From contig JBEIJY010000002.1 of the NCBI GenBank assembly GCA_040380025.1, positions 73,660-137,659 on the forward strand: DNA of 64,000 bases, read 5' to 3'. The notes under the pieces were generated by a model that did not search any database, had not been told where the DNA came from, and saw only the letters and a program-made list of their open reading frames with translations. Position numbers and translations under genes: made by a program. This DNA comes from Bdellovibrionales bacterium. Its GTDB lineage: Bacteria > Bdellovibrionota > UBA1018 > CAIMNF01. Shown in pieces: positions 14,226 to 63,423 of the stretch. Position 1 is the stretch's first letter, and the number at the start of each line of letters is the position of its first letter.

Positions 14226-14377
14226 ATCGTTCGAACATTCTGGTGCACAGCCGGGCCCGAAGAGCGTCAAGAAAATATCTTTTCTTTTTTCTTTTTTCCT
14301 TGACCTGACGTCTGTAAGCTTATGAAGTAATACCATTCAACGCAGTAAAACTATTGTTTGTCAGGAAAGGGATTTTC

Positions 14378-15157
14378 ATGTCTCGGATTAATAAAATCGT
14401 CCTGTCTTTGTTTGCGTTTTCGACCTTGTTTTCGAGCCCCGCTTTCGCAGAATCATCAAAAATGCTCAATCAGAACGACTTCGTGGGAATCTCGTTTTGG
14501 ATGATCTCGATGGCTCTCGTGGCGGCAACCGCCTTCTTCTTTCTCGAAACCCAGCGGGTTGCGGGAAAGTGGAAGACCTCTCTCACCGTTTCTGGTCTGG
14601 TGACCCTGGTCGCTGCGACTCACTACTTCTACATGCGTGAAGTATGGGTTGAGACGGCAAGCACCCCGACCGTATACCGGTACATTGACTGGCTCATCAC
14701 GGTTCCCCTTCTGATCACCGAGTTCTATCTGATCCTTCGTGCGATCGGAAAGGCCTCTGCCGGAATCTTCTGGCGTCTGATCATCGGAACCACCGCGATG
14801 CTCGCCCTCGGATACATGGGCGAAGCCGGTTACATGGGCGTGTGGCCCGCATTCATCCTGAGCTGTCTTGCGTGGTTCTTCGTGATCTACGAAATCTACG
14901 CCGGAGAAGCAGGAAGAATCGGAACCACCCAGGCTCCTCCCGCAGTTCAATCAGCGTACCGCACCATGCGGACCATCGTGGTCTTCGGCTGGGCGGTTTA
15001 TCCGATCGGATACTTCGTCGGATACCTCACCGGTGCAAACCCTGCCGACAGCATGGGAACTCTGAACATCGTTTACAACTTTGCTGACGTTGTGAACAAA
15101 ATCGGCTTCGGCGTGATCATTTGGAACGTAGCCGTCACTTCGAGCGAATCGAACTGA
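14378..15157 (+). CDS. proteorhodopsin, green-tuned proton pump (DTE motif, Leu105, Schiff-base Lys)
   Basis: Signal peptide, seven TM helices, RYIDWLITVPLLITEFY (D97, T101, L105, E108 by PR numbering), His75 (ATHYFY) and NFADVVNKIGFG retinal-binding Lys. RBS AGGAAAGGG lies upstream of ATG 14378. Confidence 0.9.
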   Translation: MSRINKIVLSLFAFSTLFSSPAFAESSKMLNQNDFVGISFWMISMALVAATAFFFLETQRVAGKWKTSLTVSGLVTLVAATHYFYMREVWVETASTPTVYRYIDWLITVPLLITEFYLILRAIGKASAGIFWRLIIGTTAMLALGYMGEAGYMGVWPAFILSCLAWFFVIYEIYAGEAGRIGTTQAPPAVQSAYRTMRTIVVFGWAVYPIGYFVGYLTGANPADSMGTLNIVYNFADVVNKIGFGVIIWNVAVTSSESN

Positions 15158-15178
15158 TTCGAACAAAAATAAGGAAAA

Positions 15179-15209
15179 GCCCCGCGACCCTGTCGTGGGG
15201 CTTTTTTTT
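15179..15209 (+). terminator. rho-independent terminator after the opsin gene
   Basis: GCCCCGCGAC-CCT-GTCGTGGGGC hairpin (one G:U pair) followed by T8. Confidence 0.75.
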
Positions 15210-15215
15210 GACCTC

Positions 15216-17207
15216 ATGAAACACTTTGATGTCGTCATTGCGGGCGGCGGTCTTTCCGGAATGATCTGCGCCGACACCCTCGCGAATTCTCCGAACACCG
15301 AACTCCGCATCGCCATTGTGGATCCCGATCCCGCGAGCCTGAAATCGAGGACTTTCGCGAGCTGGACAAAAAAATCCGAGCCTCCTCATCGGTATTCCGG
15401 CCTGGTTTCGAAGCGATGGGATCGGTTCCGGGTCACCGACCCCCGCGGGAATCCGATCGAAAGATCATTCGAAGACTATTGCTACGAGTACGTATCGGGA
15501 GAGTCGCTTTTTGAGCATTGGAATCAAAAAATCAATGCTGATCCCCGCTTTCATCGCATCGATCAATCCGTCCGGACCATCACCGAGGAGCGAAATCCCG
15601 ACACTGGACAGATTCGTGCGGTGGTGGAGCTCAAGGACGGACGCATCCTTCATGCTGATCGGGTGTTGAGCTCTCCCGCGCGCCATCCGGGAGCGGTTCA
15701 ACAAAGCTTTTTCGGGCTCGAGATCGAAACGACCGAGGAGTTCTTCGATCCGGATGTGGTGGATCTCATGGATTTTCGCTTCGAGCAAAAAGGCGAGGTC
15801 CGGTTTGTGTATCGCTTGCCCCTGAGCAAGACCCGCGCACTGGTCGAGTTCACGGTCTTTTCGGCAAGCGATGTTTCCAGAACAGACTGCGAGGCGGGAC
15901 TGCAAGAGTATCTTTCTCGATTGCTGGGGCTCCCTTCGTATTCCGTGCTCCGGACCGAATCCGGGATCATTCCGATGGGCGTGGACCCGGAGCCTTTTTT
16001 CCCCCCTTCGTTTCGAAGCCAGGTGATGGAATCGATCGGAGGAGCGGGAGGAAGAATCAAGGCCAGCACGGGATACTCCTTTCGGCGGAATCTGGAGCAC
16101 CCGGAAGCGGGGACGAGCGCGGGATCTGCGCGCTTCCGGTTCCGGATGTATGATGTGCTACTGCTCGGGATGATTCGACAAAACGGCGGCGTGGTCGCCG
16201 GCGTCTTTGCCCGATTGTTCGCACGAAACCGACCGGGAGCGGTGTTTTCGTTTCTGGACGAAAAATCGCGACCCTTGGACGAGGCCAGGATTTTCTGGTC
16301 CCTGCCTTGGACGCCTTTTTTGCGACAGTTGTTGCTGGAGTATCCTTTTCTTTTTGCCGCAATGGCAACTCTTTTGCTTCAGCATGCGATCGGAGGATTC
16401 GCCGGCTGGATCGTGCCCCTTTCGGGTCTGCTCATTACGGGCGTTCCCCATGGGAGTGTCGATCATTTGCTGAATCCAGCCCAAAAAAACAGACTTTCCT
16501 TCACGCTTCGCTATCTCATAGGAATGGCGCTTTATCTTCTCGCCTGGTGGTTTGCGCCTCTTCTGACCTTCTTGTTCTTTCTTTGGCAGTCGGCCGATCA
16601 CTTCGGCGAGGCATATTGGATTCGCGCGATCCGCGCGTCCAAGAATGATCCCCTGGTTCGCGGACTGGTCTGGCTCTGGGGCCTGTTCGCGGCCGGATTC
16701 AGTGTTTTGTTTCATTGGGAAGAGGCGATGCCGATCGTGATCGGCATCGTGGGCGATCAGGAGTGGATCCGAACACTCCCGGACTCGCGGGCTGGGTTTC
16801 TCTCGCTCGTTCTTTTTGGAATGGCCTTCATTGCGGCCCATTTGCTCGATCGCTATGAGCGCAGGTCCAGGGGGCGGCCCCCGAGCGGTGCTCCGGCCAC
16901 GCTTCTTCTCGGGGCTGTGCTCATGATGCTTCCTCTTTTACCGGGCTTTCTTTGTTTCTTTGCGTTCTGGCATGGCTGGGATTCGATCCGGGCCCAGCGG
17001 GAGCGCATGGGGTGGAGCGTGGGCGATTACGTTCGGAAGGCGTTGCCACTCTCGGTGGTTTCATGGGCCGGAATCTTTGGCTTGATTTGGTGGTTCGACG
17101 GGCTGATTTGGAAGGTCTTTTTTATCGCGATCGGCGCTCTCACCGCGGCCCACGTGCCCGCAATGAAGCGATTTTTACTTTCACGACCAACAGAAGAGCG
17201 GGGATGA
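15216..17207 (+). CDS. crtY-blh: lycopene beta-cyclase (CrtY/CrtL-type, FAD) fused in frame to Brp/Blh beta-carotene 15,15'-dioxygenase
   Basis: N-terminal VVIAGGGLSGM dinucleotide motif, ESGIIPMG and GGAGGRIKASTGYSF cyclase motifs. The C-terminal 290 aa form a multi-TM domain with conserved His motifs (PHGSVDHL, SADHFGE, HWEE, FWHGWDS) typical of Blh. Confidence 0.85.
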   Translation: MKHFDVVIAGGGLSGMICADTLANSPNTELRIAIVDPDPASLKSRTFASWTKKSEPPHRYSGLVSKRWDRFRVTDPRGNPIERSFEDYCYEYVSGESLFEHWNQKINADPRFHRIDQSVRTITEERNPDTGQIRAVVELKDGRILHADRVLSSPARHPGAVQQSFFGLEIETTEEFFDPDVVDLMDFRFEQKGEVRFVYRLPLSKTRALVEFTVFSASDVSRTDCEAGLQEYLSRLLGLPSYSVLRTESGIIPMGVDPEPFFPPSFRSQVMESIGGAGGRIKASTGYSFRRNLEHPEAGTSAGSARFRFRMYDVLLLGMIRQNGGVVAGVFARLFARNRPGAVFSFLDEKSRPLDEARIFWSLPWTPFLRQLLLEYPFLFAAMATLLLQHAIGGFAGWIVPLSGLLITGVPHGSVDHLLNPAQKNRLSFTLRYLIGMALYLLAWWFAPLLTFLFFLWQSADHFGEAYWIRAIRASKNDPLVRGLVWLWGLFAAGFSVLFHWEEAMPIVIGIVGDQEWIRTLPDSRAGFLSLVLFGMAFIAAHLLDRYERRSRGRPPSGAPATLLLGAVLMMLPLLPGFLCFFAFWHGWDSIRAQRERMGWSVGDYVRKALPLSVVSWAGIFGLIWWFDGLIWKVFFIAIGALTAAHVPAMKRFLLSRPTEERG

Positions 17208-18030
17208 AGAGCAGGATTTTTCGAGTGGTCGGGACCACGGTCCGGTTCCGGAATGCTGTTTTCGGGTCACTCGCCGCGGTCTTCAGCAATTCGTGACCGA
17301 TTTGCTGATAGAGTTTTCCGGCGAAGGCGATCGCCACGGCCGTCCGAAGGGGCAAAAATGCAATCCCCCGAAAGCCCTCGTCATACCAACGGTCAGCAAG
17401 ACGCAACAACGACCGCACCGCCGGGAGCGCTCGCTCAGGTTCGTGTGCCAGCTCGCGTGCCAAGTCGTGAGCCCCTAGCCCCGGCATGAGATCAGCCGGA
17501 ATGTACACTCGGCCGATCCGGGCATCGGCTTGGATGTCGCGCGCAATGTTCGTGAGCTGCATTGCCTTTCCGAGCGCGGCGGCCGGAGCCGGCGCCCGGA
17601 TCGGATCGGCACCGATCACGGGGCACATCATGAGTCCCACGACTCCGGCCACACGAAAGCAGTACTGTTCGAGTTCCGAAACGGTCGCATAGCGCGTGTC
17701 TTCGAGATCCATCCGGAACCCCGCGAGGAATTCCGCCCGGTGCGCGGGATCGACCCAGGCGGGAGGGCTGAAAGGAGAGTTTGCGTCGGTAGCGCACTCG
17801 ATTTCTTGAAGCCCGCGCAGCGCAGCGGAGCGGTCAGGGGCCTCGTCGATTCGATCATCACAGTTTCGGCACCACTGATACAGCCGAAGTGCATCGTGGC
17901 GCGTGGAGCGCGGCAAAAAAAATGAAGCGAGGGCAAAGCTTTTCGATCCTTGCCGGATCACCTCCTCGGGCGAAATCGCGGGGTGAGGTCTAGGATGCGG
18001 TCGAGGGTGCTCGTCTGGCGCGGCCGTCAT
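17140..18030 (-). CDS. crtB: phytoene synthase
   Basis: Squalene/phytoene synthase family with DxxxD-type substrate-binding motifs (YCFRVAGVVG, NIARDI). The start abuts the crtI stop. Confidence 0.85.
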   Translation of the reverse strand: MTAAPDEHPRPHPRPHPAISPEEVIRQGSKSFALASFFLPRSTRHDALRLYQWCRNCDDRIDEAPDRSAALRGLQEIECATDANSPFSPPAWVDPAHRAEFLAGFRMDLEDTRYATVSELEQYCFRVAGVVGLMMCPVIGADPIRAPAPAAALGKAMQLTNIARDIQADARIGRVYIPADLMPGLGAHDLARELAHEPERALPAVRSLLRLADRWYDEGFRGIAFLPLRTAVAIAFAGKLYQQIGHELLKTAASDPKTAFRNRTVVPTTRKILLFIPALLLVVKVKIASLRARGPR

Positions 18031-19554
18031 TCAGGCCTGCGCCTCGAATCGGGCCGATCGAATGTCGTCCAAGAGCAGATTCGCGGTCGCTTTTGCGGAA
18101 TTCACGACTCCCGGAACCCCTGCCCCGGGATGCGTGCCGGCGCCGACAAAATAGAGACCCTTCAGGTCGGGGTCGCGATTTCGGGTGCGGAACGCAGCAC
18201 TTTGCCAAAGGACGGGTTCGGCCGAGAAGGCCGCACCCAGATGTGAGTTCAGCTCGTCCCGGAAATCCTCAGGCGTGAAGATGCGCTGGGTGACGATGTG
18301 CTTTCGCAAATCGGGAGCGTAGCGGGTCTCGATGTACTCGAGGATTTTCTCGGCATAGGCGGGGCCCTCTTTCTTCCAGTCGATCTTGAGGTTTCCGAGA
18401 TGGGGAACGGGCGAAAGAACATAAAACGCCTCACATCCCTCGGGGGCCATCGACGGGTCCGAGCGGGTGGGGGCATGAAGATAGAGCGAGAAATCATCGG
18501 GGATTTCGTCATTCTTGCTGAAGATTTTTTTCAGGAGCTCGCGGTAGGATTTTCCGAACAGAATATTGTGATGGGCGAGTTTCGGATATTGCTTGCTTGT
18601 CCCGAAGTAAATCAAGAAGAGGGACATGCTCTGGGATTGCCGGAGCGCTTTCTGGCGCGAGGGGCGGACTTGTTCGGAGTTTCGAAGAAGGTGCGAGTAA
18701 CTGTGAACCACATCGGCGTTCGTGACGACGATGTCGCAGGGCCAGGTCCCCTGATGCGTGCGAACCGCCGAAACGCTCGAGCCATGGGTCAAAATCTCAT
18801 CGACGGGAGTCGAGAGCTCGATTCTTCCCCCAAGTTCCTGAAACAACCGCACAAGAGCGTTCACGAGTGCGCCGGTTCCTCCGCGCGGAAAGAACACGCC
18901 CCAGTTTCGTTCGAGGTAATGAATCAGGGTGTAAATCGAGGAGGTCTTGAAGGGGTCGCCGCCCACTAGCAACGAATGAAAACTGAATGCCTGGCGAAGC
19001 TCACGGTCTTCGATGTATTGCGAGACCGTCTTGAAGACCGAGCGGTGAGCCTTCAGATTCACAAGCTGGGGTGCAACCCGCACCATGCTCCAGAGATTCA
19101 AAAACGGAACATGGGCGAGCTTGGTGTAGCCCTCATCGAAGACATTCTTCGAGTAGTTCAGGAACCGCTCATAGCCTTCGACGTCGCGCGGGGACTTCGA
19201 CTGGATCTGCTCGAAGGTCGTCTTCGGATCGTTCGAGTAGTCGAAGACATAGCCGTTCTCCCAAAAGAGCCGATAAAACGGGCTCACGGGCATGAGCTCG
19301 ACGTAGTCTTCCATCTTCCGGCCCGCCTCTTCGAACAACTCCTTCAGGCACTCAGGCGCGGTGATCACAGTGGGACCAGCATCGAAAACAAAGCCCTTGT
19401 CCCGGTACACATAGGCCCTGCCGCCAGGCTGGTCTCGCTTTTCGAAGAGCACCACTTCGTGTCCGGCCGTTTGCAGGCGCACGGCGGCGGCCAGTCCCGC
19501 AAAGCCACTGCCGATGACGGCGATTCTTTTTTTGTTCCTGATTTTTTCAGCCAT
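18031..19554 (-). CDS. crtI: phytoene desaturase
   Basis: IAVIGSGFAGLAAA FAD motif. Full-length CrtI-like amine-oxidase fold. Confidence 0.9.
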   Translation of the reverse strand: MAEKIRNKKRIAVIGSGFAGLAAAVRLQTAGHEVVLFEKRDQPGGRAYVYRDKGFVFDAGPTVITAPECLKELFEEAGRKMEDYVELMPVSPFYRLFWENGYVFDYSNDPKTTFEQIQSKSPRDVEGYERFLNYSKNVFDEGYTKLAHVPFLNLWSMVRVAPQLVNLKAHRSVFKTVSQYIEDRELRQAFSFHSLLVGGDPFKTSSIYTLIHYLERNWGVFFPRGGTGALVNALVRLFQELGGRIELSTPVDEILTHGSSVSAVRTHQGTWPCDIVVTNADVVHSYSHLLRNSEQVRPSRQKALRQSQSMSLFLIYFGTSKQYPKLAHHNILFGKSYRELLKKIFSKNDEIPDDFSLYLHAPTRSDPSMAPEGCEAFYVLSPVPHLGNLKIDWKKEGPAYAEKILEYIETRYAPDLRKHIVTQRIFTPEDFRDELNSHLGAAFSAEPVLWQSAAFRTRNRDPDLKGLYFVGAGTHPGAGVPGVVNSAKATANLLLDDIRSARFEAQA

Positions 19555-20644
19555 GCGAATTCATCACCTTTCTTGCCATTTCTTCGATCGGGTTCAGAGC
19601 CGGGTTCCCGGCGAATCGATCTTTGAGTCCTCTCAGACACGAATCCATCGCCTCGCAGGCTTGCGCAAGCGCCACCGCGATCACCGGATGGGTCGTCCGC
19701 GGATCGTCTTCGCCTTTTTGGATGGTTCGGGACATCAGGGCCTGGAATTTTGTGAACTCATGGGGTTCGAGCGTTGTCGCCGCAACCGCCCACACCCAGG
19801 ACGGACGAATGAAGGGCCCTCTCGGGGTGTCCGATTTGCCCGATTCGCGAAACTCGGCCAGGTCATTGAACATTTGCAACAAGACCCCGAACGACTGACC
19901 GAAATCGGCAATCGTGCGACGAAGGTCCGAATGGGCAGAGGCGGCGACGGCTCCGAATTCGGCGCACATCCTCATGAGGGCGCCGGTTTTCAGGCCCAGC
20001 GTTGCCATCGAGATTGGAGTGATTTTCGCTTGGGGCAGAAAGGTCATGTCATGAGCGAGATCGAGCGACTGACCATAGTGAGCTTGAATCATGGCGTGAT
20101 GATGAACCCGATAGAGCTCGAGCTCGATTTCAGCCGGGATTTTTTGAGACCGGATCAGGTCGGTCGCGCGGTAGTAGAGCCAGTTGCCGGCATTGATGGC
20201 AGAGGGCATGCCGATCAGGGCGTGCAGGGCAGGGCCGCCTCTTCGAGTCATGCTTGAGTCCTGAATGTCATCGATGATCAGGGATCCGGCATGGATCGTC
20301 TCGACCATGGCACCGAGAGAAGAGAGCAAGTCCTCGTGCTCCTTGTCTCGGACCGCTGAACCCGAGGCGAGATCAAACCCGATCGAGACCAACTGAGCCC
20401 GGACCTGTTTGCTCGGCCGGTCCAAGTATTCGTTCAGGGGGTCGAGCATGGGTGCGAGCAAAGGGGGAAGAGCTTCTTTTGGCGCGACTCCCAGCGGGAG
20501 CCATTCCCGCAAAAAAGCCAAGTCGTCCGGGCCCGGGAGGATCATCTGCGACAAAGTACGCGGTTGGTCCGACCTCGCGGGCGGGGATGTTCTGAATGGT
20601 TCCTGGATTTCTCTTCGATTCGTCAGTTCACGAAACTCGTTCAC
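19547..20644 (-). CDS. crtE: polyprenyl (geranylgeranyl) diphosphate synthase family
   Basis: First aspartate-rich motif LIIDDIQD. The second motif is degenerate (FNDLAEF). It overlaps the crtI start by 8 nt. The true start may be the internal ATG (MILPGPDD) near 20545. Confidence 0.75.
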   Translation of the reverse strand: MNEFRELTNRREIQEPFRTSPPARSDQPRTLSQMILPGPDDLAFLREWLPLGVAPKEALPPLLAPMLDPLNEYLDRPSKQVRAQLVSIGFDLASGSAVRDKEHEDLLSSLGAMVETIHAGSLIIDDIQDSSMTRRGGPALHALIGMPSAINAGNWLYYRATDLIRSQKIPAEIELELYRVHHHAMIQAHYGQSLDLAHDMTFLPQAKITPISMATLGLKTGALMRMCAEFGAVAASAHSDLRRTIADFGQSFGVLLQMFNDLAEFRESGKSDTPRGPFIRPSWVWAVAATTLEPHEFTKFQALMSRTIQKGEDDPRTTHPVIAVALAQACEAMDSCLRGLKDRFAGNPALNPIEEMARKVMNSHG

Positions 20645-20818: not shown

Positions 20819-21649
20819 ATGAAGTGTTTCACGGCCGTGGTTGCATTTGTCCTTTCTGTTCCCCTCTTCGCCATCGCAGATGAGCGATGTTCCGATCTTC
20901 TGACCAAGAAAACCCACCAGGAGGCGATTGCCGAGGGGATTCTTGCGAGCTATGCCCCTTATCAGTACCGCCCGTTCCGACTCGAACCGCTTAGCCAGAA
21001 TCAGAATGCCATCGTATTTTTGGGATCGGAGATTGATCTTCCAAAACGGAAGTTCATTTTGAAGGTCATGCCGCTCGGCGAGGCATTGAGCGACTTTTAT
21101 GCTCTTCGCTTGATTCGAGGCATCCAGAAAGAGATTCGAATCCCGATTTCCGTGGTCGATTCGGTGGTTCTCACGCCTCGACTCGGAACTCTCGCGTCAG
21201 AGACCTTGGTGCTCCAGAAAAACTCCCTCGCCCGGGGAAGAACTTTGTTTGAGATTCTTGCCGACGAACAGGTCGCAACCGATCGAAAGAGTTACCTTCG
21301 GAATTACTATATGGCCTGGATCCATCAAATGGCGGGAGCTTTGAAGAAGAAGCGGTTTTTGGTCGAAACGAAGCGTCTGGAGTCCAACTTTTATCGAAAC
21401 CAACACCGCTTCATCGAGACCCATCCGAATGCGATCGACGATCAGCCGATTGCGCTCAGTGCGAGCCGTTTGTGGGATGAAGAGATGAGGGGCAAGGAGA
21501 TGGAGCCTTTGTTCCAGTATCTCGACCGCGCATCCCGTGGTGTGCTCGAGAACCTGAGCAGTAGCGGGAACGGGATATCCATCATCCTCAAGACCGACAA
21601 CATCATGGTCGATGATTCCGACCACATGGTGTTGTTTGATCCATTTTAA
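20819..21649 (+). CDS. secreted hypothetical protein with protein-kinase-like motifs
   Basis: Signal peptide. KFILKV (VAIK-like), ILKTDNIMV (catalytic-loop-like) and VLFDPF (DFG-like) appear in the expected order. Confidence 0.5.
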   Translation: MKCFTAVVAFVLSVPLFAIADERCSDLLTKKTHQEAIAEGILASYAPYQYRPFRLEPLSQNQNAIVFLGSEIDLPKRKFILKVMPLGEALSDFYALRLIRGIQKEIRIPISVVDSVVLTPRLGTLASETLVLQKNSLARGRTLFEILADEQVATDRKSYLRNYYMAWIHQMAGALKKKRFLVETKRLESNFYRNQHRFIETHPNAIDDQPIALSASRLWDEEMRGKEMEPLFQYLDRASRGVLENLSSSGNGISIILKTDNIMVDDSDHMVLFDPF

Positions 21650-23100
21650 TTTTTTGGTTTCGGATTCTTTTTTTCGATCAGGGGGGCAGTCAACTTTACG
21701 CGAAGTCCGCGATCGGGATTCCCGATGGGTAGCACCAGATACATGCTGGTGCCCGATCGAGGAAATTCCAATCCGGCCGCAATTTCGCCAGAAATCCCCT
21801 GTTTTTTTGCCCACTCCCGGAGAATCGATACATTGACAAAGCCCCGCACGGGGGTCTTTTCGGAGCTTCCGGCGAAATTTGTGCCGAAACTCGCCCCGAA
21901 ACTCGCTTCACTCGAAAGCTCTTGCCCCGCTTCGGCGTTGTTTCGGATTCGAATCGGGGTCACCGACGCGTTCGCGACCAACCCGCCCTTGTGAAGTTGA
22001 TACGCTCCCGTTGCCTCATTGGTTTGCCCGAGCCGTGTGATCAATCCATAGGTGTGCCGGGCTCCTCCGGTCGAATTGGCTGATTCCGAGACTTGGACGA
22101 TCAGCTGGCCGTAAGGATCGGAGCCGCGGGTCTCGTACCCCAAAAACAGGTTCTGGTTTTTCTTCTTCCATGCGACCCCGGTCAACGCCTGCTCCCGGAA
22201 TGGCCTGGCGATCAATACATATTGAAGTTTTCCACCGACCCGTCGGAGCGGATTTTGACCGGAAATCCGGAAATCCAGGTAGCTGCCTCCCGGATCGGTC
22301 GCATCCACGCGGGAGCGGAGCGAGAGATCAGAATCGCCAATCGATGCCCCCGAGGGATTCCGCCAGTGTTGTTTGTAGTCAAAACCGACCGGAATCGTGA
22401 CCGGTCCCAAGGAGTAAAATCGCGGTTTGAATTTGGATTTCTTTCCCTTTTCCATCGGAATGGCCGAAAATCGGCCTGCTTCCACCGCAGATGGAACCAA
22501 GGCTGTCCATCGGCTCCCGGTGACCCAAAGATCGGGATTCGCAGGCGAAGGTTCAAGGGCAATTACCGCAAGAGGACTCGACTGCGAAGACAGTTCGAGA
22601 ATCTCCGGCAAATCGGAGTCCCCCGGGGCCTGCGACGGCCGCCAAGAACAGGCATCGACGTTTTCTCCGAAAGCGGCCTTCGCCCACTCGCCATCGAGAG
22701 AGGGCGGAAAAGCCCCAATCGCGGCCTGAAGGGGTTTCAGATTCTCTGCCACCGGAGAAACTGCTCCGGGCGGAGGTTCTTCAAAAACCGGGATTAGCTC
22801 GTGGTCGATTGCTCTGTCCGTGAAGTTGATGAACGAGGGGGTGAATCCGAGCCCCATTTGCTTTTGCATCTCGAGCGGATCCCCGAATGCGCTGGCAAGT
22901 TCGGGCAGACGTAACCATCCCTCTGGCGTGGCCAAATCCGGAAACAGTCCCGGCTGCATCACATAGTGCCCGAGAAAAAAAGCATTCCTCTCCCAATCCG
23001 AATCTTGTGCCTGCACGCGCGCCCCGATGCACCAAAAAATTGGCATCAAGATCAAGAACCGAACAGGAATCCGTATCGCCCGAAAAAACAGCGCACTCAT
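21646..23100 (-). CDS. hypothetical secreted/outer-membrane protein (484 aa)
   Basis: Signal-anchor-like N-terminus. The C-terminal half has alternating hydrophobic/polar residues and ends in an aromatic-rich beta-strand-like segment. Confidence 0.55.
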   Translation of the reverse strand: MSALFFRAIRIPVRFLILMPIFWCIGARVQAQDSDWERNAFFLGHYVMQPGLFPDLATPEGWLRLPELASAFGDPLEMQKQMGLGFTPSFINFTDRAIDHELIPVFEEPPPGAVSPVAENLKPLQAAIGAFPPSLDGEWAKAAFGENVDACSWRPSQAPGDSDLPEILELSSQSSPLAVIALEPSPANPDLWVTGSRWTALVPSAVEAGRFSAIPMEKGKKSKFKPRFYSLGPVTIPVGFDYKQHWRNPSGASIGDSDLSLRSRVDATDPGGSYLDFRISGQNPLRRVGGKLQYVLIARPFREQALTGVAWKKKNQNLFLGYETRGSDPYGQLIVQVSESANSTGGARHTYGLITRLGQTNEATGAYQLHKGGLVANASVTPIRIRNNAEAGQELSSEASFGASFGTNFAGSSEKTPVRGFVNVSILREWAKKQGISGEIAAGLEFPRSGTSMYLVLPIGNPDRGLRVKLTAPLIEKKNPKPKN

Positions 23101-38394: not shown

Positions 38395-40767
38395 TTACCA
38401 ATAGGGCACCGTCCGGTAGAACACCGAGGTGTCGAATCTTTGGGATGCCCCGAAGCCCCATTCCGAGGCCCGCTGGCTGAATCCCATGGTCATGAACAGC
38501 GTCTCATCGGCGAGGAGCTTCGCGCTCAGTTTCCGTTCGAGCGGGTCAGGGGAGTTCGGATCGAGAGTGATCGAATTCAAACCCTCTTTGAACTTCAGAT
38601 GCCGGTTGTAGACGATCACCTCGATCGCATCTTTTTTGTGTCGTCTCGACATCGGCTGAATCCGAAAGTACAAAAACTCCGGCGTTTTGCTCAAATTGAA
38701 GTGAATCACGGTTCTTCCAAGCGCATCACGCGAAGAATAGAACGACCGCACGAGGGCCTCGGGGTCTTGCGCGGTCCGTTCGGTCTCGGTTCCCATTCCC
38801 ATCGATTGCGACGAGATCCGGAGCGTGTTTTCCATCGCGGTCGGCGTGTGCCCGCGCACCTGGATGTTCCCGAAGGCCGGATTCTGCGCCACCAAGAACC
38901 GTTCATAGGTGCCGTTCGGGAGTCCCTCCATCAGCAGAATCGGATACAACTCCGAACGCCCCTGATTGGCAAAAAGACGCGTGAGTGCCGCATGTTCGGC
39001 CTGTGCATCCCCGCGAAGAAAAGCTTCGCGCGCCTCCTCGAACCAGCGTTGCTTGAGTCTCAGGCCGAGTCCCTTTGCACGGCGGTCGATTTCTTCCCAC
39101 GGGGTCTCGAGGAAGCGCCGGAGGCCCGAGAGCTTGAAGGTCATTCCGAAGTAAAACGAGCTTCTTCCGTAAAACAGTCGTCTTCCCAGTTTTTTTCCCG
39201 GAGCGGGCGGCGCCCGGCGGGGAAATCGCGGAAAAATCCCTTTCAGTCCCAAATCGGTTTCGACCCGTCCCACGTACCGGTTCAGCGAGGCGGCCATGGT
39301 GTAAGAGTCATCGATGGAGTTCTCGGACATCAGCACGAACGAGTCCTCGAGCTTCTCGCGGAACGCCTGATCATCGATCAGAATCGAGGTGCGATGGGTG
39401 ACGCGTTCCCCGCTTCCGACAAAATCGTATTCCCGCGAGCGGGACTTCACGGACTGAAAAAATCGCTTCTCTCCGTCCGGGAGTTCGATCTCGGTCGTGA
39501 TTTTTTGCGAGCCCCGCGCGACACTGAACCGGATCACCGGGCTTGCACGCCCGCTGAATTCGGCGTTGTGGAGGTGCCGGTCGGTTTTTCGGCGGTACAA
39601 CCGCTCGACCGGAGGTCGCCCTTCTTCGGGTATCATCGCAGAGAGCTCGCTTGACCGGATGAACGAGCCCAGCACCGCACGATGATACGCATCCCTTCCC
39701 TCGGGCGACTCGAGATCGTAGCGGTATCCGACATCGAGGCCGATCTCGCGCGCATTGGTCGCCGTGAACTGAAACGGCGTGATGGTGGGGCTCAGGCGTC
39801 CCACGGTGGTTTCGATGCTCGAACCTTTGAACAGAACAAATCCTTGAAATACCCCCGGAAAGCCAAGTCTTGTTCCCGCCGTGACCTTGAGCTGATCGCC
39901 CTTCAGGCGGCTGATCCGGACTTTCGCGTAGCGATCGTCTTCTTTCATGATCGCGATCTGGTAACTGCCCGTAAAATGGAACTCCACGCCGACTCCCGCG
40001 TAGCCCTCGATCAGGGGTACGGGCGACACATTCCAGCCGAAATCCCCCCCGAAGCCCGCGGTGCCCGAGACGGTGTAGCTGATGATCTCGTTCTTCTTCA
40101 TGCGCTTCTTCACGCAGTTCGCATGAAAGGGGATTTTGAAGGGGAGCTTTACGAGATTCAACACATCCCGGAGCTTTACCCGCATCGCCGCATCGAGCGG
40201 ACTGGAGTTCAGGTACGGGTTCAGGTCTTCGATGTCGGCCTCGTCGCCCGGGCCCGCGTTCTCGAAATCGAGGGCCTCCTTGGTGCGGGCTTTTTCGGGG
40301 CTCATCTGCCGGATGTTCCGGATCTCGAATGAGCCATCGACCCCGAGGCGCATTCCGCCCACGGGGAACTGCAGAACCTGATCGGGAATCCGCTCGGGGG
40401 GGCCCACGGTCAGGTCCGCGCCGACGATGCGCGAAGCGAGGCGGATCGAGAACGAGTCGATCACCGTCCAGGTGTTCAGGGTGTCGTAGTTGTTGAAGAT
40501 GTTGCGTCCGATGCGGACCGCGCCCGAGCCGATTCCGGGAATGTCGCTGTCATACAGGGGAATCGAGGTGTTTCCGTCGAAGAGGGCGTTCACGATCCGG
40601 TATTCGAGGGCTTCGCCCCGGGTCATCGAGGATTGGTAGAACTCCTCGGGCCAGGGTCTTGGCTGGAAGTCGAAGCCCGGCGGAGGAGGGCGCGGCACTT
40701 CGATTTGTGCGAGCGCGATCCCCGGCATGGCCAGCAATGCCGCAAAGAAAATGCGAAGCAAATTCAC
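38395..40767 (-). CDS. large secreted hypothetical protein (790 aa)
   Basis: Signal peptide MNLLRIFFAALLAMPGIALA. No recognisable family. The antisense ORFs across it are Arg-rich artefacts. Confidence 0.65.
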   Translation of the reverse strand: MNLLRIFFAALLAMPGIALAQIEVPRPPPPGFDFQPRPWPEEFYQSSMTRGEALEYRIVNALFDGNTSIPLYDSDIPGIGSGAVRIGRNIFNNYDTLNTWTVIDSFSIRLASRIVGADLTVGPPERIPDQVLQFPVGGMRLGVDGSFEIRNIRQMSPEKARTKEALDFENAGPGDEADIEDLNPYLNSSPLDAAMRVKLRDVLNLVKLPFKIPFHANCVKKRMKKNEIISYTVSGTAGFGGDFGWNVSPVPLIEGYAGVGVEFHFTGSYQIAIMKEDDRYAKVRISRLKGDQLKVTAGTRLGFPGVFQGFVLFKGSSIETTVGRLSPTITPFQFTATNAREIGLDVGYRYDLESPEGRDAYHRAVLGSFIRSSELSAMIPEEGRPPVERLYRRKTDRHLHNAEFSGRASPVIRFSVARGSQKITTEIELPDGEKRFFQSVKSRSREYDFVGSGERVTHRTSILIDDQAFREKLEDSFVLMSENSIDDSYTMAASLNRYVGRVETDLGLKGIFPRFPRRAPPAPGKKLGRRLFYGRSSFYFGMTFKLSGLRRFLETPWEEIDRRAKGLGLRLKQRWFEEAREAFLRGDAQAEHAALTRLFANQGRSELYPILLMEGLPNGTYERFLVAQNPAFGNIQVRGHTPTAMENTLRISSQSMGMGTETERTAQDPEALVRSFYSSRDALGRTVIHFNLSKTPEFLYFRIQPMSRRHKKDAIEVIVYNRHLKFKEGLNSITLDPNSPDPLERKLSAKLLADETLFMTMGFSQRASEWGFGASQRFDTSVFYRTVPYW

Positions 40768-51097: not shown

Positions 51098-51877
51098 ATG
51101 GCGAACATCCATTCGACTGCGATTGTCCATGCCCGTGCAGAGCTTGCCGCCACGGTCGAGGTAGGACCCTACTGTGTGATCGGCCCGAATGTGAAGGTCG
51201 ACGAGGGGACTTGTTTTCAGAGCCATGTTGTCGTCGATGGTTGGACGACGATCGGCAAGAACAATGTGTTCTTTCCGTTCGGCTCGATCGGAGCCGTGCC
51301 GCAGGACCTGAAGTACAAGGGCGAAAAAACCGAGCTGATCATCGGGGACCACAACACGATCCGCGAGAGCGTCACTTTGAATCTCGGGACCGTGCAGGGA
51401 ATCGGAAAGACCGTGATCGGAAATCACAACCTGATCATGGCCTATGTGCATTTCGGTCATGATGTCGTGCTCGGAAACCACGCCATCATCGCGAACTCGG
51501 TCAATCTTGCGGGGCACTCCGTGATCGAAGACCATGTGAACGTCGGCGGCATGACCGGGGTTGTGCAGTTCTGCCGGATCGGGGCGCACTCCTATGTCGG
51601 GGGTTGTTCGGTGATCGATCGGGACGTGACTCCCTTCACCATCGTCATCGGCTCACGGCCCGTCGAGCTGAAGGGTGCCAACATCATCGGCCTTCGCCGG
51701 CGTGGATTCAGCAATGCCACGATCTCGGCGATCAGTGAATCCCTGAAGCTCTGGAAGCGTGCGGATGTCATGAGGGACCAGTGCCTGCTCGAGATCGAGA
51801 GCCAGTATGGCGAGGTTCCCGAGGTGCGGGAACTCGTGCAGTTCATCCGGAAGAGCGAGCACGGTTGCGTGAGATGA
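51098..51877 (+). CDS. lpxA: acyl-ACP--UDP-GlcNAc O-acyltransferase
   Basis: Hexapeptide-repeat beta-helix with a C-terminal helical domain. The stop overlaps the next start. Confidence 0.9.
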   Translation: MANIHSTAIVHARAELAATVEVGPYCVIGPNVKVDEGTCFQSHVVVDGWTTIGKNNVFFPFGSIGAVPQDLKYKGEKTELIIGDHNTIRESVTLNLGTVQGIGKTVIGNHNLIMAYVHFGHDVVLGNHAIIANSVNLAGHSVIEDHVNVGGMTGVVQFCRIGAHSYVGGCSVIDRDVTPFTIVIGSRPVELKGANIIGLRRRGFSNATISAISESLKLWKRADVMRDQCLLEIESQYGEVPEVRELVQFIRKSEHGCVR

Positions 51878-53961
51878 GGATCTTTGTCTCCGCGGCGGAG
51901 ATTTCGTCTGACATTCACGCCGCGAAGATTCTCCGCGCCCTGATCGATCTCTTGCCGCCGGATTCGGTCCGTGTTGCCGGAATCGGCGGTCCGCGTCTTC
52001 GAGCCCTCCCTGAATTCGAGTGTCTTGCCGAAGCGGAGTCGATGCGGGTCATGGGTTTTGTCGAAGTGCTCGGAAGTTTGGGCAAGCTCGCGCGAATTCG
52101 TGACAAAATCGAAGGATTCCTTTCTTCGAATCCTCCCGATCTCATTCTGACGTTCGATTATCCTGATTTCCATTTTTCTTTGATGAAAAGACTCTCGCGC
52201 CATCCCTGGTTTGCGGAAGCATTCAAGATCTGCGCGATTCCGCCCAAGGTCTGGGTGTGGCGAAAAAATCGGGTCGAACGGATCCGCAGACTCTACGACG
52301 GGGTGCTCGTGGTGTTCCCGTTCGAAGAACAATTCTATCGCGATCACGGGATCCCGGTTTTGTACCGTGGGAATCCGCTCATTGCCGATCTGCTCGAGCG
52401 GCATCCTGTCCGGGCCGGTGGCGATGCCGGTGATTTCTTGCAACTCGCAGTTCTTCCCGGAAGCCGCAAGGGGGAGCTAAAGCAGCATCTTCCGATTGTG
52501 GCGGCCACGCTTCATGATCTTTCTGCGATTTCAGGAAGAACGGTGATTGCAGAGGTGCCCGTTCCCCGGGGAGTCGAGCAGTCTTGGATCGAGTGCGAGC
52601 TGGTTTCGAACTCACGGGTGCAGTACCGGTTTTTTCCGGATGGATCGGGAGAGGTCCTCTCGCGCAATTCCGTCGGGTTGGTGAAGAGCGGCACGTCCAC
52701 GCTCGAGGCGGCGGTTCTCGGGTGTGTGCCGGTGATTTTTTATCGAATGAATCCCGTGAGTGAGTGGATTTTCAAGAAATTCGTCCGGTACGCCGGTCCG
52801 GTGGGGCTCCCGAACATCCTGCTTGGAATCCGGGATCGAAGCCGCGCGGTGTTTCGCGAGTTTTTGGGTCGGGAGGCCGCCCCCGGAGCGCTGGCCGTGG
52901 AGCTTCGGAGATTGCTCGAGGATTCCGGGTCGAGAGACGAACTCCAACGGGCCGGTGACTCCTTGCGGTCCTCTTTGGTGCCCGCCCGGGGGCCGGTCCC
53001 GACCGAACTCGCGAAGGCCATTCTGGAGTGGGTTTCGACGCCGCGAAATCTCCGCATTTCCCGCAAAAAATCAACATGGATCGCACTGGCTTCGTTCTTC
53101 TGGTCTTGTTTGAATGGCCTGCGAAGGGGAGTGCGGAAGGCTCTCGGACTCACCGGGCGCAAGCTTCCGGTCCGTTCGATTCTGGTCGGAAACCTGCAGG
53201 CCGGCGGGGCGGGAAAAACCCCTCTGGTGATCGCTCTCGCGCAGGGGGCGCTGGCGCGGGGGGATCGGGTCGGGGTGGTTTCGCGCGGCTACGGAATCAA
53301 GCTCACTGAAACAGTCCGGATCGCATCTCACGGGGACTCCGCGTCCCGGATCGGAGACGAACCGGCCGAAATTCTGAGCGAGGTACCGGGAGTGAAGATC
53401 GCTCTTTCGGCCGATCGGCATCAGGCTGCAGAGGCACTGATCCGCGAGGGCGTGAATCTCATTCTGGCCGATGACGGATTCCAGAATCTCCGGTTTCGCA
53501 CCGATGTGACCGTTCTTGCGGTGACGGATGCGGGACGGAACGAGATTCCCTATCGGGATTTTGACTCGGTCGCGACTTTGGCAGACTTCGTCGTCCAAAC
53601 AAAGGGCGAGGTGGGCGACCGGTTCGGTGCGATTTTTCGGCTCGAGTGGGAGTCTGATGCGATTCCTCATGGTCCTCTTTGGCTCTGGTGTGCCGTCGGG
53701 GATCCCGATGAGGTGGTGCGATTCCATCGGAATCGCGGGTGTGAAATCGAGCGTGTGATCGTCGCCCGCGATCATGCGGTGCCGGACCCCGCGGCGATCT
53801 CGGCATGGATCAACGAAGCCCGTCTTGCGGGTGCGCATCTGGCCGTGACCCCGAAGGATGCGGTGAAGATTCCGCTCGATCTGCGTCAGGAAATTGTGGT
53901 TCTTTCTCGAAGGATTCGCGCTCCACAGTTGATTTCGAAGATCTTGGACCGTTTGCAATAA
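51874..53961 (+). CDS. lpxB-lpxK: lipid-A-disaccharide synthase fused to tetraacyldisaccharide 4'-kinase (LpxB-LpxK)
   Basis: The first ~385 aa are LpxB (MRIFVSAAEISSD ... GTSTLEA). They are followed by the LpxK membrane anchor (WIALASFFWSCL), the P-loop NLQAGGAGKTP and DDGFQ, with no intervening stop. Confidence 0.85.
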   Translation: MRIFVSAAEISSDIHAAKILRALIDLLPPDSVRVAGIGGPRLRALPEFECLAEAESMRVMGFVEVLGSLGKLARIRDKIEGFLSSNPPDLILTFDYPDFHFSLMKRLSRHPWFAEAFKICAIPPKVWVWRKNRVERIRRLYDGVLVVFPFEEQFYRDHGIPVLYRGNPLIADLLERHPVRAGGDAGDFLQLAVLPGSRKGELKQHLPIVAATLHDLSAISGRTVIAEVPVPRGVEQSWIECELVSNSRVQYRFFPDGSGEVLSRNSVGLVKSGTSTLEAAVLGCVPVIFYRMNPVSEWIFKKFVRYAGPVGLPNILLGIRDRSRAVFREFLGREAAPGALAVELRRLLEDSGSRDELQRAGDSLRSSLVPARGPVPTELAKAILEWVSTPRNLRISRKKSTWIALASFFWSCLNGLRRGVRKALGLTGRKLPVRSILVGNLQAGGAGKTPLVIALAQGALARGDRVGVVSRGYGIKLTETVRIASHGDSASRIGDEPAEILSEVPGVKIALSADRHQAAEALIREGVNLILADDGFQNLRFRTDVTVLAVTDAGRNEIPYRDFDSVATLADFVVQTKGEVGDRFGAIFRLEWESDAIPHGPLWLWCAVGDPDEVVRFHRNRGCEIERVIVARDHAVPDPAAISAWINEARLAGAHLAVTPKDAVKIPLDLRQEIVVLSRRIRAPQLISKILDRLQ

Positions 53962-61774: not shown

Positions 61775-61850
61775 GGCTCCACACTAACGGAAGATTTGGC
61801 GGGATTTCAATCGATTCATCCGGGGGCAAACCGGTTTTTTGCGGGATGGT

Positions 61851-63332: not shown

Positions 63333-63423
63333 GGCGTGCAGTCTAGCGGGGGCTCGGGGGTGGGGCAAGGGAAAGCAAGGAAAGTCTGGTGCTGGTTTTA
63401 ACCCCTTGCCCGAACCCCCCTGA

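What the first reader, a model, noticed from the sequence alone, without database searches (positions are those of the whole stretch)
15216..17207. Lycopene cyclase and beta-carotene 15,15'-dioxygenase (Blh) encoded as one fused polypeptide
An uninterrupted 664-codon frame joins a flavin-type lycopene beta-cyclase to a multi-TM Brp/Blh domain. In described rhodopsin clusters these are normally separate genes. The fusion would channel lycopene to beta-carotene to retinal in one membrane protein directly downstream of the opsin, which has its own terminator, so crtY-blh needs its own promoter. The window is a single unverified assembly, so a frameshift artefact that joins two ORFs cannot be excluded.
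Basis: partly seen in the sequence, partly recalled or inferred. Interest (0 to 1): 0.65.

Follow-up and report, generated by a model that had tools for sequence, protein, structure and literature searches.

The report
Natural lycopene cyclase–Blh retinal-synthesis fusion gene
This is a real, widely conserved bacterial gene that joins the last two enzymes of retinal synthesis (lycopene cyclase CrtY and the beta-carotene-cleaving Blh) into one membrane protein next to a light-driven proton pump; it is common in sequence databases, I found no published description of it, and its biochemistry is untested.

Summary
The 664-codon frame (15216-17207, +) is real. Its N-terminal half is a complete FAD-type lycopene cyclase (residues 1-~373). 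Its C-terminal half is a Brp/Blh beta-carotene 15,15'-dioxygenase (residues ~396-655). Both pass Pfam cut-offs, and Blh also passes the NCBIfam cut-off. It is not a frameshift artefact. The identical protein occurs in two assemblies. About 50 fused relatives (37-55% identity) occur in freshwater Bdellovibrionota/Oligoflexales MAGs. A second, much larger fused clade occurs in freshwater Bacteroidetes, and one fused gene lies in a TGA-recoded (code 25) genome. All join at the same point, through a hydrophobic helix and not a soluble linker. The FAD motif, 43 of 45 CrtY-conserved residues and four histidines (candidate iron ligands) are kept. In 14 of 14 loci an opsin lies nearby, and in 13 it is directly adjacent. 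In the window the cluster is proteorhodopsin, crtY-blh, crtB, crtI and crtE. The "own promoter" idea is not supported: a structurally conserved terminator ends 6 nt before the ATG, so attenuated read-through is more likely. Substrate channelling is plausible but unproven, and relatives with antenna-carotenoid genes argue against obligatory channelling. I found no paper describing this bacterial fusion. I rate it a new variant of a known kind, of moderate interest.

The parts
14378..15157 (+). Proteorhodopsin gene. The ORF opens at TTG 14354, but the likely start is ATG 14378, preceded by GGAAAGGG. It has a signal-peptide-like N-terminus and a DTE motif read from RYIDWLITVPLLITE.
   Evidence: Pfam Bac_rhodopsin 152 bits. 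Best solved relative is green-light-absorbing proteorhodopsin 8cqc, 301 bits. Sequence read.
15179..15209 (+). Intrinsic terminator after the opsin. The core stem is GCCCCGCGAC / GUCGUGGGGC (15179-15188 and 15192-15201) with loop CCU, followed by T8 (15202-15209). The T tract ends 6 nt before the ATG of crtY-blh.
   Evidence: Fold energy -28 kcal/mol, z = -5.8, 0 of 200 shuffles as stable. Found by the terminator scan. Hairpin plus T-run at the same place in L008 and L009 with different stem sequences.
15216..17207 (+). crtY-blh fused gene, 663 aa plus stop.
   Evidence: AF2 model has mean pLDDT 89.7 and pTM 0.88.
15216..16334 (+). CrtY-type FAD-dependent lycopene cyclase domain (residues 1-373). 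It includes the GxGxxG motif (G10, G12), the LVEFT motif (E211, T213), E248, and the C-terminal FLDE...LPxxPF motif (346-368).
   Evidence: Stand-alone CrtY proteins align to residues 1-~373 and end within 5-25 residues of their own C-termini. 43 of 45 positions that are >=85% conserved in 99 stand-alone CrtY are kept. The fold matches FAD-dependent PHBH/geranylgeranyl-reductase-like structures.
16344..16388 (+). Junction: a hydrophobic helix (residues 377-391, PFLFAAMATLLLQHA), inferred to be a transmembrane adaptor between the cytoplasmic cyclase and the first His-bearing Blh helix. There is no soluble linker.
   Evidence: AF2 helix 377-391 and hydropathy. All 132 fused proteins tested have a hydrophobic stretch of >=14 aa in the 39-68 residues between LPxxxF and the first His; most stand-alone Blh lack it. 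The unfused relative L014 has it.
16401..17180 (+). Brp/Blh beta-carotene 15,15'-dioxygenase domain (residues ~396-655), polytopic membrane protein. Four invariant histidines: H412 (16449-16451), H462 (16599-16601), H586 (16971-16973) and H646 (17151-17153).
   Evidence: Pfam BCD and TIGR03753 both above cut-off. The histidines are invariant in A1 (47 fused proteins), and four histidines are likewise invariant in A2 (44 distant fused proteins). By number and spacing they resemble the His21/78/188/256 plane proposed for Blh 66A03 (bioRxiv 10.64898/2026.08.06.743266); I did not align the two proteins.
17140..18030 (-). crtB (phytoene synthase), convergent with crtY-blh. The 3' ends overlap by 68 nt (17140-17207).
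   Evidence: Pfam SQS_PSY 176 bits. The same kind of overlap is seen in L006 (74 nt), L008 (65 nt) and L009 (21 nt).
18031..19554 (-). crtI (phytoene desaturase).
   Evidence: Pfam Amino_oxidase 171 bits. 76-80% identical to crtI in L001-L006.
19547..20644 (-). crtE (geranylgeranyl diphosphate synthase), first gene of the convergent crtE-crtI-crtB unit.
   Evidence: Pfam polyprenyl_synt 116 bits.

Best explanation
The ORF is a genuine, evolutionarily stable gene for a bifunctional membrane enzyme. A cytoplasmic FAD-dependent CrtY domain cyclises both ends of lycopene to give beta-carotene. A polytopic Blh domain with a four-histidine iron site then cleaves beta-carotene at the 15,15' bond into two all-trans-retinal, the chromophore of the proteorhodopsin encoded immediately upstream. 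Together with the convergent crtE-crtI-crtB unit, the window holds a complete GGPP-to-retinal pathway plus the opsin, in a Bdellovibrionota chromosome. The two domains are joined by a hydrophobic helix and not by a soluble linker. This helix probably passes the chain through the membrane once, so that the Blh helices keep their native orientation. The fusion fixes a 1:1 stoichiometry, anchors the cyclase at the membrane, and places it beside the cleavage enzyme. Expression most likely comes from partial read-through of the conserved opsin terminator, which would give much opsin and little enzyme. Shown here: the domain identities, the intact conserved residues, the conserved junction, the wide distribution and the opsin linkage. 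Inferred: both catalytic activities, the membrane topology, the proximity or hand-over of beta-carotene, and read-through expression.
For: Both domains exceed Pfam cut-offs and Blh exceeds the NCBIfam cut-off. The cyclase domain is full length and keeps 43 of 45 CrtY-conserved positions, including the FAD motif. Four histidines are invariant in two alignments covering 91 fused proteins; by number and spacing they resemble the proposed Blh iron plane. The AF2 model is confident (pLDDT 89.7, pTM 0.88), and the N-domain has the FAD PHBH/GGR fold. The fusion recurs in about 50 clusters at 37-55% identity, in dozens of further 50%-identity representatives and in up to 749 clusters of a Bacteroidetes clade. 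All 140 full-length fused proteins join at the same point. The identical protein occurs in two assemblies. An opsin is present in 14 of 14 loci examined and directly adjacent in 13. The window has no second cyclase, Blh or other carotenoid gene. The terminator is conserved in structure. The unfused relative L014 has crtY and blh overlapping by GTGA.
Against: There is no biochemical evidence for either activity in any member. The cyclase half does not reach the NCBIfam lycopene-cyclase cut-offs (TIGR01790 89 vs 209.5; TIGR01789 41.5 vs 215.2). It is therefore a divergent CrtY whose mono- versus bicyclase specificity is unknown. No Shine-Dalgarno sequence or promoter was found for the gene. Topology rests on hydropathy and the positive-inside rule only. 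Only 64 kb of the genome was seen, so a second cyclase or Blh elsewhere cannot be excluded.
Confidence: 0.8

Rival explanations
1. Assembly or frameshift artefact: two separate genes (crtY and blh) were joined by an indel in this one assembly.
For: Unfused neighbours with overlapping stop and start codons exist (L014), so a single-base error could in principle create such a frame.
Against: The identical protein occurs in two assemblies. Hundreds of homologs from NCBI, JGI, ENA and Logan, down to 25% identity, read through the same junction in one frame. Residues are conserved on both sides of the junction.
Confidence: 0.01
2. The fusion is real, but one half is no longer catalytic. For example, the CrtY-like domain could be only a carotenoid-binding or delivery module for Blh, with cyclisation done by another enzyme elsewhere in the genome.
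For: The cyclase half scores far below the NCBIfam CrtY equivalog cut-offs. Only 64 kb of the genome was inspected. A 404-aa relative (P0104) looks like a Blh with a decayed N-terminal FAD-like stub.
Against: 43 of 45 CrtY-conserved positions are retained, including GxGxxG, E211, T213 and E248, and 37 of 45 are kept at >=85% across 106 fused proteins. No second cyclase is present in the window, in the Bacteroidetes two-gene opsin plus fusion modules, or in the other flanks whose gene tables were returned.
Confidence: 0.07
3. The enzyme is bifunctional, but the fusion serves only co-expression and membrane anchoring. The cyclised carotene is released into the membrane pool and also feeds other carotenoids, and the cyclase may act partly as a monocyclase, so retinal is not the only end product.
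For: In L001-L005 and L010 the fused gene is the last gene of a cluster with a ketolase-like desaturase, a CruF-type hydratase, an acyltransferase and a glycosyltransferase, next to a xanthorhodopsin. That composition resembles a salinixanthin-type antenna pathway, which needs a beta-ring from a cyclase.
Against: The window and the closest relatives L008 and L009 carry no carotenoid-modifying genes near the cluster. In the Bacteroidetes loci the gene pairs only with the opsin. This rival overlaps with the best explanation and differs from it only on channelling.
Confidence: 0.3

Closest known systems
Separate crtY and blh genes of proteorhodopsin photosystem clusters (PR-crtEIBY-blh, as in marine gammaproteobacterial clones, and the PR-blh pair of Flavobacteriia; PMC5932025, plus established knowledge)
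   Same: Same two enzyme families, same predicted chemistry (lycopene to beta-carotene to two retinal), and the same tight linkage to an opsin gene.
   Different: Here both activities lie on one 663-aa chain joined by a hydrophobic helix. The gene order also differs: opsin-terminator-crtYblh converging on crtB-crtI-crtE. The cyclase half is divergent and falls below the NCBIfam CrtY cut-offs.
[quoted passage not shown]
   Same: It is the only published case I found of a lycopene cyclase domain fused N-terminally to a Blh domain. It also occurs in an organism with opsins.
   Different: It is eukaryotic and has four domains. Its cyclase is the small membrane-embedded CrtYc/d type, which is unrelated in fold to the FAD-dependent CrtY used here.
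Other fusions of consecutive carotenoid enzymes: fungal CrtYB (cyclase/phytoene synthase), thraustochytrid CrtIBY, bacterial CrtBI (PMC2889829 Table S2, PMC10016063)
   Same: The same evolutionary theme of fusing carotenoid pathway enzymes into one polypeptide.
   Different: None of them includes the cleavage step together with a CrtY-type flavoprotein cyclase.
Unfused relative L014 (Logan SRR22388262 contig): opsin-crtY-blh with a GTGA stop/start overlap
   Same: Same gene order and orientation. Its Blh already has the extra N-terminal hydrophobic helix (first His at residue 41). Its CrtY groups next to the window clade in the NJ tree.
   Different: It has two polypeptides (414 and 306 aa) and is only 33% and 25% identical to the two halves of the window protein.

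Membership tests
CrtY-type lycopene cyclase (Pfam PF05834 Lycopene_cycl) | Profile match above the curated Pfam gathering score | tested here: met
   161.1 bits against 23.4, residues 5-304. Local alignments to stand-alone CrtY extend to residue ~373.
CrtY-type lycopene cyclase (Pfam PF05834 Lycopene_cycl) | N-terminal FAD-binding GxGxxG fold and a flavoprotein (PHBH/GGR-like) architecture | tested here: met
   DVVIAGGGLSG, with G10 and G12 invariant. Foldseek top hits are geranylgeranyl reductases, UbiI and squalene epoxidase, E about 1e-10.
CrtY-type lycopene cyclase (Pfam PF05834 Lycopene_cycl) | Retention of residues near-invariant in stand-alone CrtY | tested here: met
   43 of 45 positions in the window protein; 37 of 45 kept at >=85% in 106 fused proteins.
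NCBIfam lycopene beta-cyclase CrtY equivalog (TIGR01789) / carotene cyclase subfamily (TIGR01790) | Score above the curated cut-off | tested here: not met
   41.5 against 215.2 and 89.3 against 209.5. I therefore file it as a divergent Lycopene_cycl family member and not as the CrtY equivalog. Product specificity is undetermined.
CrtY-type lycopene cyclase | Lycopene beta-cyclase activity | not testable with these tools
   Needs complementation in lycopene-producing E. coli.
Brp/Blh beta-carotene 15,15'-dioxygenase (PF15461 BCD; TIGR03753) | Profile matches above the curated cut-offs | tested here: met
   Pfam 106.9 against 28. TIGR03753 122.2 against 95.25.
Brp/Blh beta-carotene 15,15'-dioxygenase (PF15461 BCD; TIGR03753) | Four conserved histidines proposed to bind Fe(II) | tested here: met
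   H412, H462, H586 and H646 are invariant in A1 and four histidines are invariant in A2. The His21/78/188/256 plane of Blh 66A03 comes from bioRxiv 10.64898/2026.08.06.743266. The correspondence is judged from number and spacing, not from an alignment. The His192 equivalent is not conserved here.
Brp/Blh beta-carotene 15,15'-dioxygenase (PF15461 BCD; TIGR03753) | Polytopic all-helical membrane protein | tested here: met
   AF2 predicts helices only from residue 377 to 655, and hydropathy shows about 10 hydrophobic spans. No solved Blh structure exists for comparison.
Brp/Blh beta-carotene 15,15'-dioxygenase | Cleavage of beta-carotene to retinal | not testable with these tools
   Needs an enzyme assay or HPLC.
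Rhodopsin photosystem gene cluster (opsin plus retinal pathway) | Opsin together with crtE, crtB, crtI, a cyclase and a cleavage enzyme in one locus | tested here: met
   All functions lie within 14354-20644.
Thecamonas-type CrtIBY-Blh multidomain fusion | CrtYc/d-type cyclase domain preceded by CrtI and CrtB domains | tested here: not met
   Only Lycopene_cycl (FAD type) and BCD domains are present; crtI and crtB are separate genes.

The most novel reading that the evidence does not exclude
The fusion is a true lycopene-to-retinal channel. The cyclase docks on the cytoplasmic face of Blh, directly over an iron site that (by the inferred topology) lies near the cytoplasmic ends of four helices. 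Beta-carotene would then be cleaved without ever entering the free membrane pool. If the enzyme dimerises, as the review PMC9227343 lists for the characterised bacterial Blh, two cyclase domains might work on the two ends of one lycopene. Carriers could then make chromophore without being pigmented, and the conserved leaky terminator would set the opsin-to-enzyme ratio. The module (opsin plus crtY-blh) would be a compact, horizontally mobile 'retinal add-on' that has spread between Bdellovibrionota, Bacteroidota and a code-25 (CPR-type) lineage.
Probability: 0.2. Interest if true: 0.6.

Novelty: new variant of a known kind. Interest (0 to 1): 0.4.

Why it matters
1. Genome surveys. Source annotations name these proteins either 'lycopene beta-cyclase' (JGI) or 'Brp/Blh family dioxygenase' (NCBI), never both. 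Name-based surveys of which rhodopsin-bearing microbes can make their own retinal will therefore score either crtY or blh as missing in freshwater Bacteroidetes and Bdellovibrionota, and possibly in a recoded CPR-type lineage.

2. Engineering. A natural single-chain lycopene-to-retinal enzyme is a ready-made part for retinoid production and for optogenetic hosts. It is also a natural experiment on whether tethering a peripheral flavoprotein cyclase to an integral membrane oxygenase improves flux.

3. Evolution. The opsin plus crtY-blh pair is about the smallest unit that gives phototrophy to any host already making lycopene, which may help explain the spread of rhodopsins in fresh water.

None of this overturns known biology. 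Both enzymes and the pathway are textbook.

Tried and rejected
- A global alignment of fused and stand-alone cyclases smeared the short proteins across the Blh half. I replaced it with local alignments.
- The AFDB fold library was not available. A Foldseek search of the PDB informs only on the FAD domain, because no Blh structure exists.
- Model coordinates and PAE could not be read, so I made no interface or tunnel analysis.
- Literature: nine full-text searches and ten papers read in part found no description of a bacterial CrtY-Blh fusion. The exact term 'crtY-blh' occurs in 0 papers. This covers open-access text only, so a description in a subscription journal or in a database note cannot be excluded.
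- The metabolic-engineering paper that I opened for 'fused' concerned degradation tags, not cyclase-Blh fusions.
- Own-promoter idea: the sigma-70 scan found no + strand site near 15216.
- An Rfam scan of the window found only tRNA-Ser. The repeat search around the cluster gave only short chance-level matches and no mobile-element boundaries.
- The single-origin question was addressed only with a BLOSUM-distance NJ tree without support values. It gives two pure fused clades (48 and 57) plus one singleton, with 12 stand-alone cyclases interleaved. One ancient fusion with occasional fission and two independent fusions both remain possible.
- L007 first looked like a coordinate error ('translates_to_query: no', internal stops). 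It turned out to be TGA recoding.
Full report
**Observation.** The + strand carries an uninterrupted ORF from GTG 15195 / ATG 15216 to the stop at 17205-17207.
- Pfam places Lycopene_cycl at residues 5-304 (161 bits, cut-off 23.4) and BCD/Blh at residues 405-647 (107 bits, cut-off 28).
- NCBIfam's Brp/Blh model TIGR03753 scores 122.2 against a cut-off of 95.25.
- Homologs align from residue 1 of the ATG form. The GTG at 15195 lies inside the 3' arm of a terminator hairpin. ATG 15216 is therefore the likely start.

**Not an artefact.**
- The exact protein is on record from two assemblies: an NCBI/ENA contig of 168,238 bp (called from the GTG, 670 aa) and a Logan contig of 4,375 bp (663 aa).
- A word-indexed search returned about 50 clusters of fused proteins at 37-55% identity from NCBI, JGI, ENA and Logan. 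Their full-length members are 646-704 aa. It also returned three fused proteins at 25-28% identity.
- The exhaustive search of 1.84 billion representatives put dozens more full-length fused proteins (646-703 aa, 26-34% identity, one alignment stretch spanning both halves) among the top 150.
- A profile of that distant group retrieved 749 clusters at E <= 1e-60. All of the best 120 carry both Pfam domains.
- With domain HMMs built from the family, all 140 full-length fused proteins in hand end the cyclase profile at positions 368-371 and start the Blh profile at positions 1-15. The gap is 0-22 residues in nearly all of them.

**Anatomy of the cyclase half.**
- Stand-alone CrtY proteins align locally to query residues 1-~373 and stop within 5-25 residues of their own C-termini. 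The cyclase half is therefore complete, even though Pfam's profile match ends at residue 304.
- It keeps the consensus residue at 43 of the 45 positions that are >=85% conserved in 99 stand-alone CrtY. These include GxGxxG (G10, G12), E211/T213 in LVEFT, E248, and the C-terminal FLDE...LPxxPF motif.
- It does not reach the NCBIfam lycopene-cyclase cut-offs. It is a divergent member, and its mono- versus bicyclase specificity is not predicted.

**Anatomy of the Blh half.**
- H412, H462, H586 and H646 are invariant in the 47-sequence alignment A1. Four histidines are likewise invariant in the 44-sequence alignment A2 of distant fused proteins.
- In number and spacing they resemble the His21/78/188/256 plane proposed as the iron site of Blh 66A03. 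That paper also states that no Blh crystal structure exists (bioRxiv 10.64898/2026.08.06.743266). I did not align the two proteins directly.
- AlphaFold2 on the 47-sequence alignment gives mean pLDDT 89.7 and pTM 0.88. It predicts an alpha/beta N-domain followed by helices only from residue 307 to 655.
- Foldseek against the PDB matches the N-domain to FAD-dependent geranylgeranyl reductases, UbiI and squalene epoxidase, and finds nothing for the Blh half.

**The junction.**
- There is no soluble linker. After LPWTPF (363-368) comes a hydrophobic helix (377-391), a four-residue turn, and then the helix bearing H412 (396-414).
- In 132 of 132 fused proteins tested, the 39-68 residues between LPxxxF and the first histidine contain a strongly hydrophobic stretch of at least 14 residues.
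- Among the stand-alone Blh proteins examined, four have the first histidine at residues 17-31. Two (P0099, P0102) have it at about residues 45-48 and carry an extra N-terminal helix. P0232 looks N-terminally truncated, and P0104 (404 aa) carries an N-terminal FAD-like stub ahead of its Blh domain.
- From hydropathy and the positive-inside rule I infer ten spans with both termini cytoplasmic. All four histidines would then sit near the cytoplasmic ends of even-numbered helices, on the same side as the cyclase.

**Context in the window.**
- The gene order is opsin (+), terminator, crtY-blh (+), then convergent crtB, crtI and crtE (-). That is a full GGPP-to-retinal set.
- The opsin is a close relative of green-light-absorbing proteorhodopsin (301 bits to 8cqc).
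- No second cyclase, Blh or carotenoid-modifying gene occurs in the 64 kb.
- The organism is a Bdellovibrionota bacterium. The housekeeping LpxB-LpxK protein has only Bdellovibrionales/Bdellovibrionota-named relatives. The nearest genome hits for the fused gene are Oligoflexales and Bdellovibrionales MAGs from lakes and rivers.

**Context elsewhere.** An opsin accompanies the fused gene in 14 of 14 loci and is directly adjacent in 13.
- L008 and L009 share the window's layout.
- L006 has crtY-blh converging on an opsin-crtE-crtI-crtB unit.
- L001-L005 and L010 place the fused gene last in a cluster with a ketolase-like desaturase, a CruF-type hydratase, an acyltransferase and a glycosyltransferase. 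It sits next to a xanthorhodopsin (294 bits to 3ddl, 283 bits to Kin4B8).
- The Bacteroidetes-type loci L011-L013 have a bare opsin plus crtY-blh pair in three different orientations.
- L007, from a TGA-recoded genome, has opsin, crtY-blh, crtB and crtI.

**Regulation.**
- The 58 nt between the opsin stop and the ATG are filled by a canonical terminator: a 10-bp GC-rich stem, loop CCU and a T8 tract, with energy -28 kcal/mol and z = -5.8. The T tract ends 6 nt before the ATG.
- No sigma-70-like site was found on that strand and no Shine-Dalgarno sequence is visible.
- L008 and L009 have a hairpin plus T-run at the same place with different stem sequences.
Attenuated read-through from the opsin promoter is the simplest model, and it remains untested.

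**Origin.**
- In an NJ tree of the cyclase domain the fused proteins form two pure clades (48 around the window protein, 57 distant) plus one singleton. Twelve stand-alone cyclases lie between them.
- One of those, P0053, lies in L014 as opsin-crtY-blh, with the crtY TGA stop overlapping the blh GTG start (GTGA). Its Blh already has the extra N-terminal helix.
- A one-base change in such an arrangement would create the fusion. Whether that happened once or more than once is not resolved.

**Mechanism.**
- Shown: two intact enzyme domains in one conserved chain, always beside an opsin.
- Inferred from established knowledge of CrtY and Blh: lycopene is converted to beta-carotene and then to two retinal.
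- The fusion guarantees equal amounts of the two enzymes, anchors the cyclase in the membrane and brings it close to the cleavage enzyme.
- True channelling is unproven and unlikely to be obligatory. If the fused cyclase is the only one in the xanthorhodopsin-linked relatives (not checked), it must also supply the beta-ring for their antenna-type carotenoid pathway.

**Comparison and novelty.**
- Described rhodopsin clusters have separate crtY and blh genes (for example PMC5932025).
- The only published cyclase-Blh fusion I found is the eukaryotic Thecamonas CrtI-CrtB-CrtYc/d-Blh protein, which uses an unrelated cyclase type (PMC10016063).
- A 2010 catalogue of carotenoid fusion proteins lists CrtBYcd and CrtBI but nothing involving Blh (PMC2889829 Table S2).
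- Nine full-text searches found no description of the bacterial fusion. The 2026 Blh study that aligned 500 homologs does not mention it.
- The architecture is nevertheless plainly visible in precomputed Pfam annotations.
- I rate it a new variant of a known kind, with interest about 0.4. It is useful for annotation, engineering and the ecology of rhodopsins, but it would not surprise a specialist.

Noticed in passing
L007 1-17671 (NCBI GCA_043769645.1, JAYVJC010000042.1): This contig uses TGA as a sense codon. Eleven of the 13 other called genes have in-frame TGA, and all end in TAA or TAG. TGA aligns with conserved glycine at 11-12 of 19 sites in CrtI. That indicates genetic code 25 (Gracilibacteria/Absconditabacteria type). 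The contig nevertheless carries opsin, fused crtY-blh, crtB and crtI. From memory, published CPR rhodopsin work reports no retinal synthesis genes in CPR bacteria, so this may be worth its own look.
   Followed up: partly
window 51781-53961 (+): LpxB (lipid-A-disaccharide synthase) and LpxK (tetraacyldisaccharide 4'-kinase) are encoded as one 726-aa frame. About 95 homologous clusters share both domains in chains of roughly 690-760 aa, and the named ones are all Bdellovibrionales/Bdellovibrionota. It is a second, lineage-typical fusion of two lipid A pathway enzymes.
   Followed up: partly
window 17140-17207: The convergent genes crtY-blh and crtB overlap by 68 nt at their 3' ends. Similar overlaps occur in L006 (74 nt), L008 (65 nt) and L009 (21 nt). 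Both proteins are conserved almost to their ends, so the two transcription units must terminate inside each other's coding sequence.
   Followed up: partly
L003 2579-8836; also L001, L002, L004, L005, and L010 1474-7661: Oligoflexales/Bdellovibrio-type relatives pair the fused gene with a xanthorhodopsin (related to Salinibacter XR and Kin4B8). The same cluster holds a FA_desaturase-family (ketolase-like) gene, a Caroten_synth (CruF-like) gene, an acyltransferase and a GT2 glycosyltransferase. This composition resembles a salinixanthin-type antenna carotenoid pathway.
   Followed up: partly
window 14354-14400: The opsin ORF opens at TTG 14354. However, ATG 14378 is preceded by a GGAAAGGG ribosome-binding site and gives MSRINKIVLSLFAFSTLFSSPAFA, which looks like a signal peptide. 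Read directly from the sequence, helix C has the DTE proton-pump motif and Leu at the green/blue tuning position.
   Followed up: no
protein P0104 (404 aa): This is a Blh-domain protein whose N-terminus starts with a GxGxxG-like motif (MIYDHVITGAGAVA...) but lacks most of the cyclase domain. It may be a decayed or truncated fusion.
   Followed up: no
window 38395-40767 (-), 21646-23100 (-), 61839-63401 (+), 20819-21649 (+): Four ORFs of 276-790 aa have no Pfam match at E <= 1e-5. The 276-aa ORF at 20819-21649 lies next to crtE and begins with a signal-peptide-like sequence.
   Followed up: no
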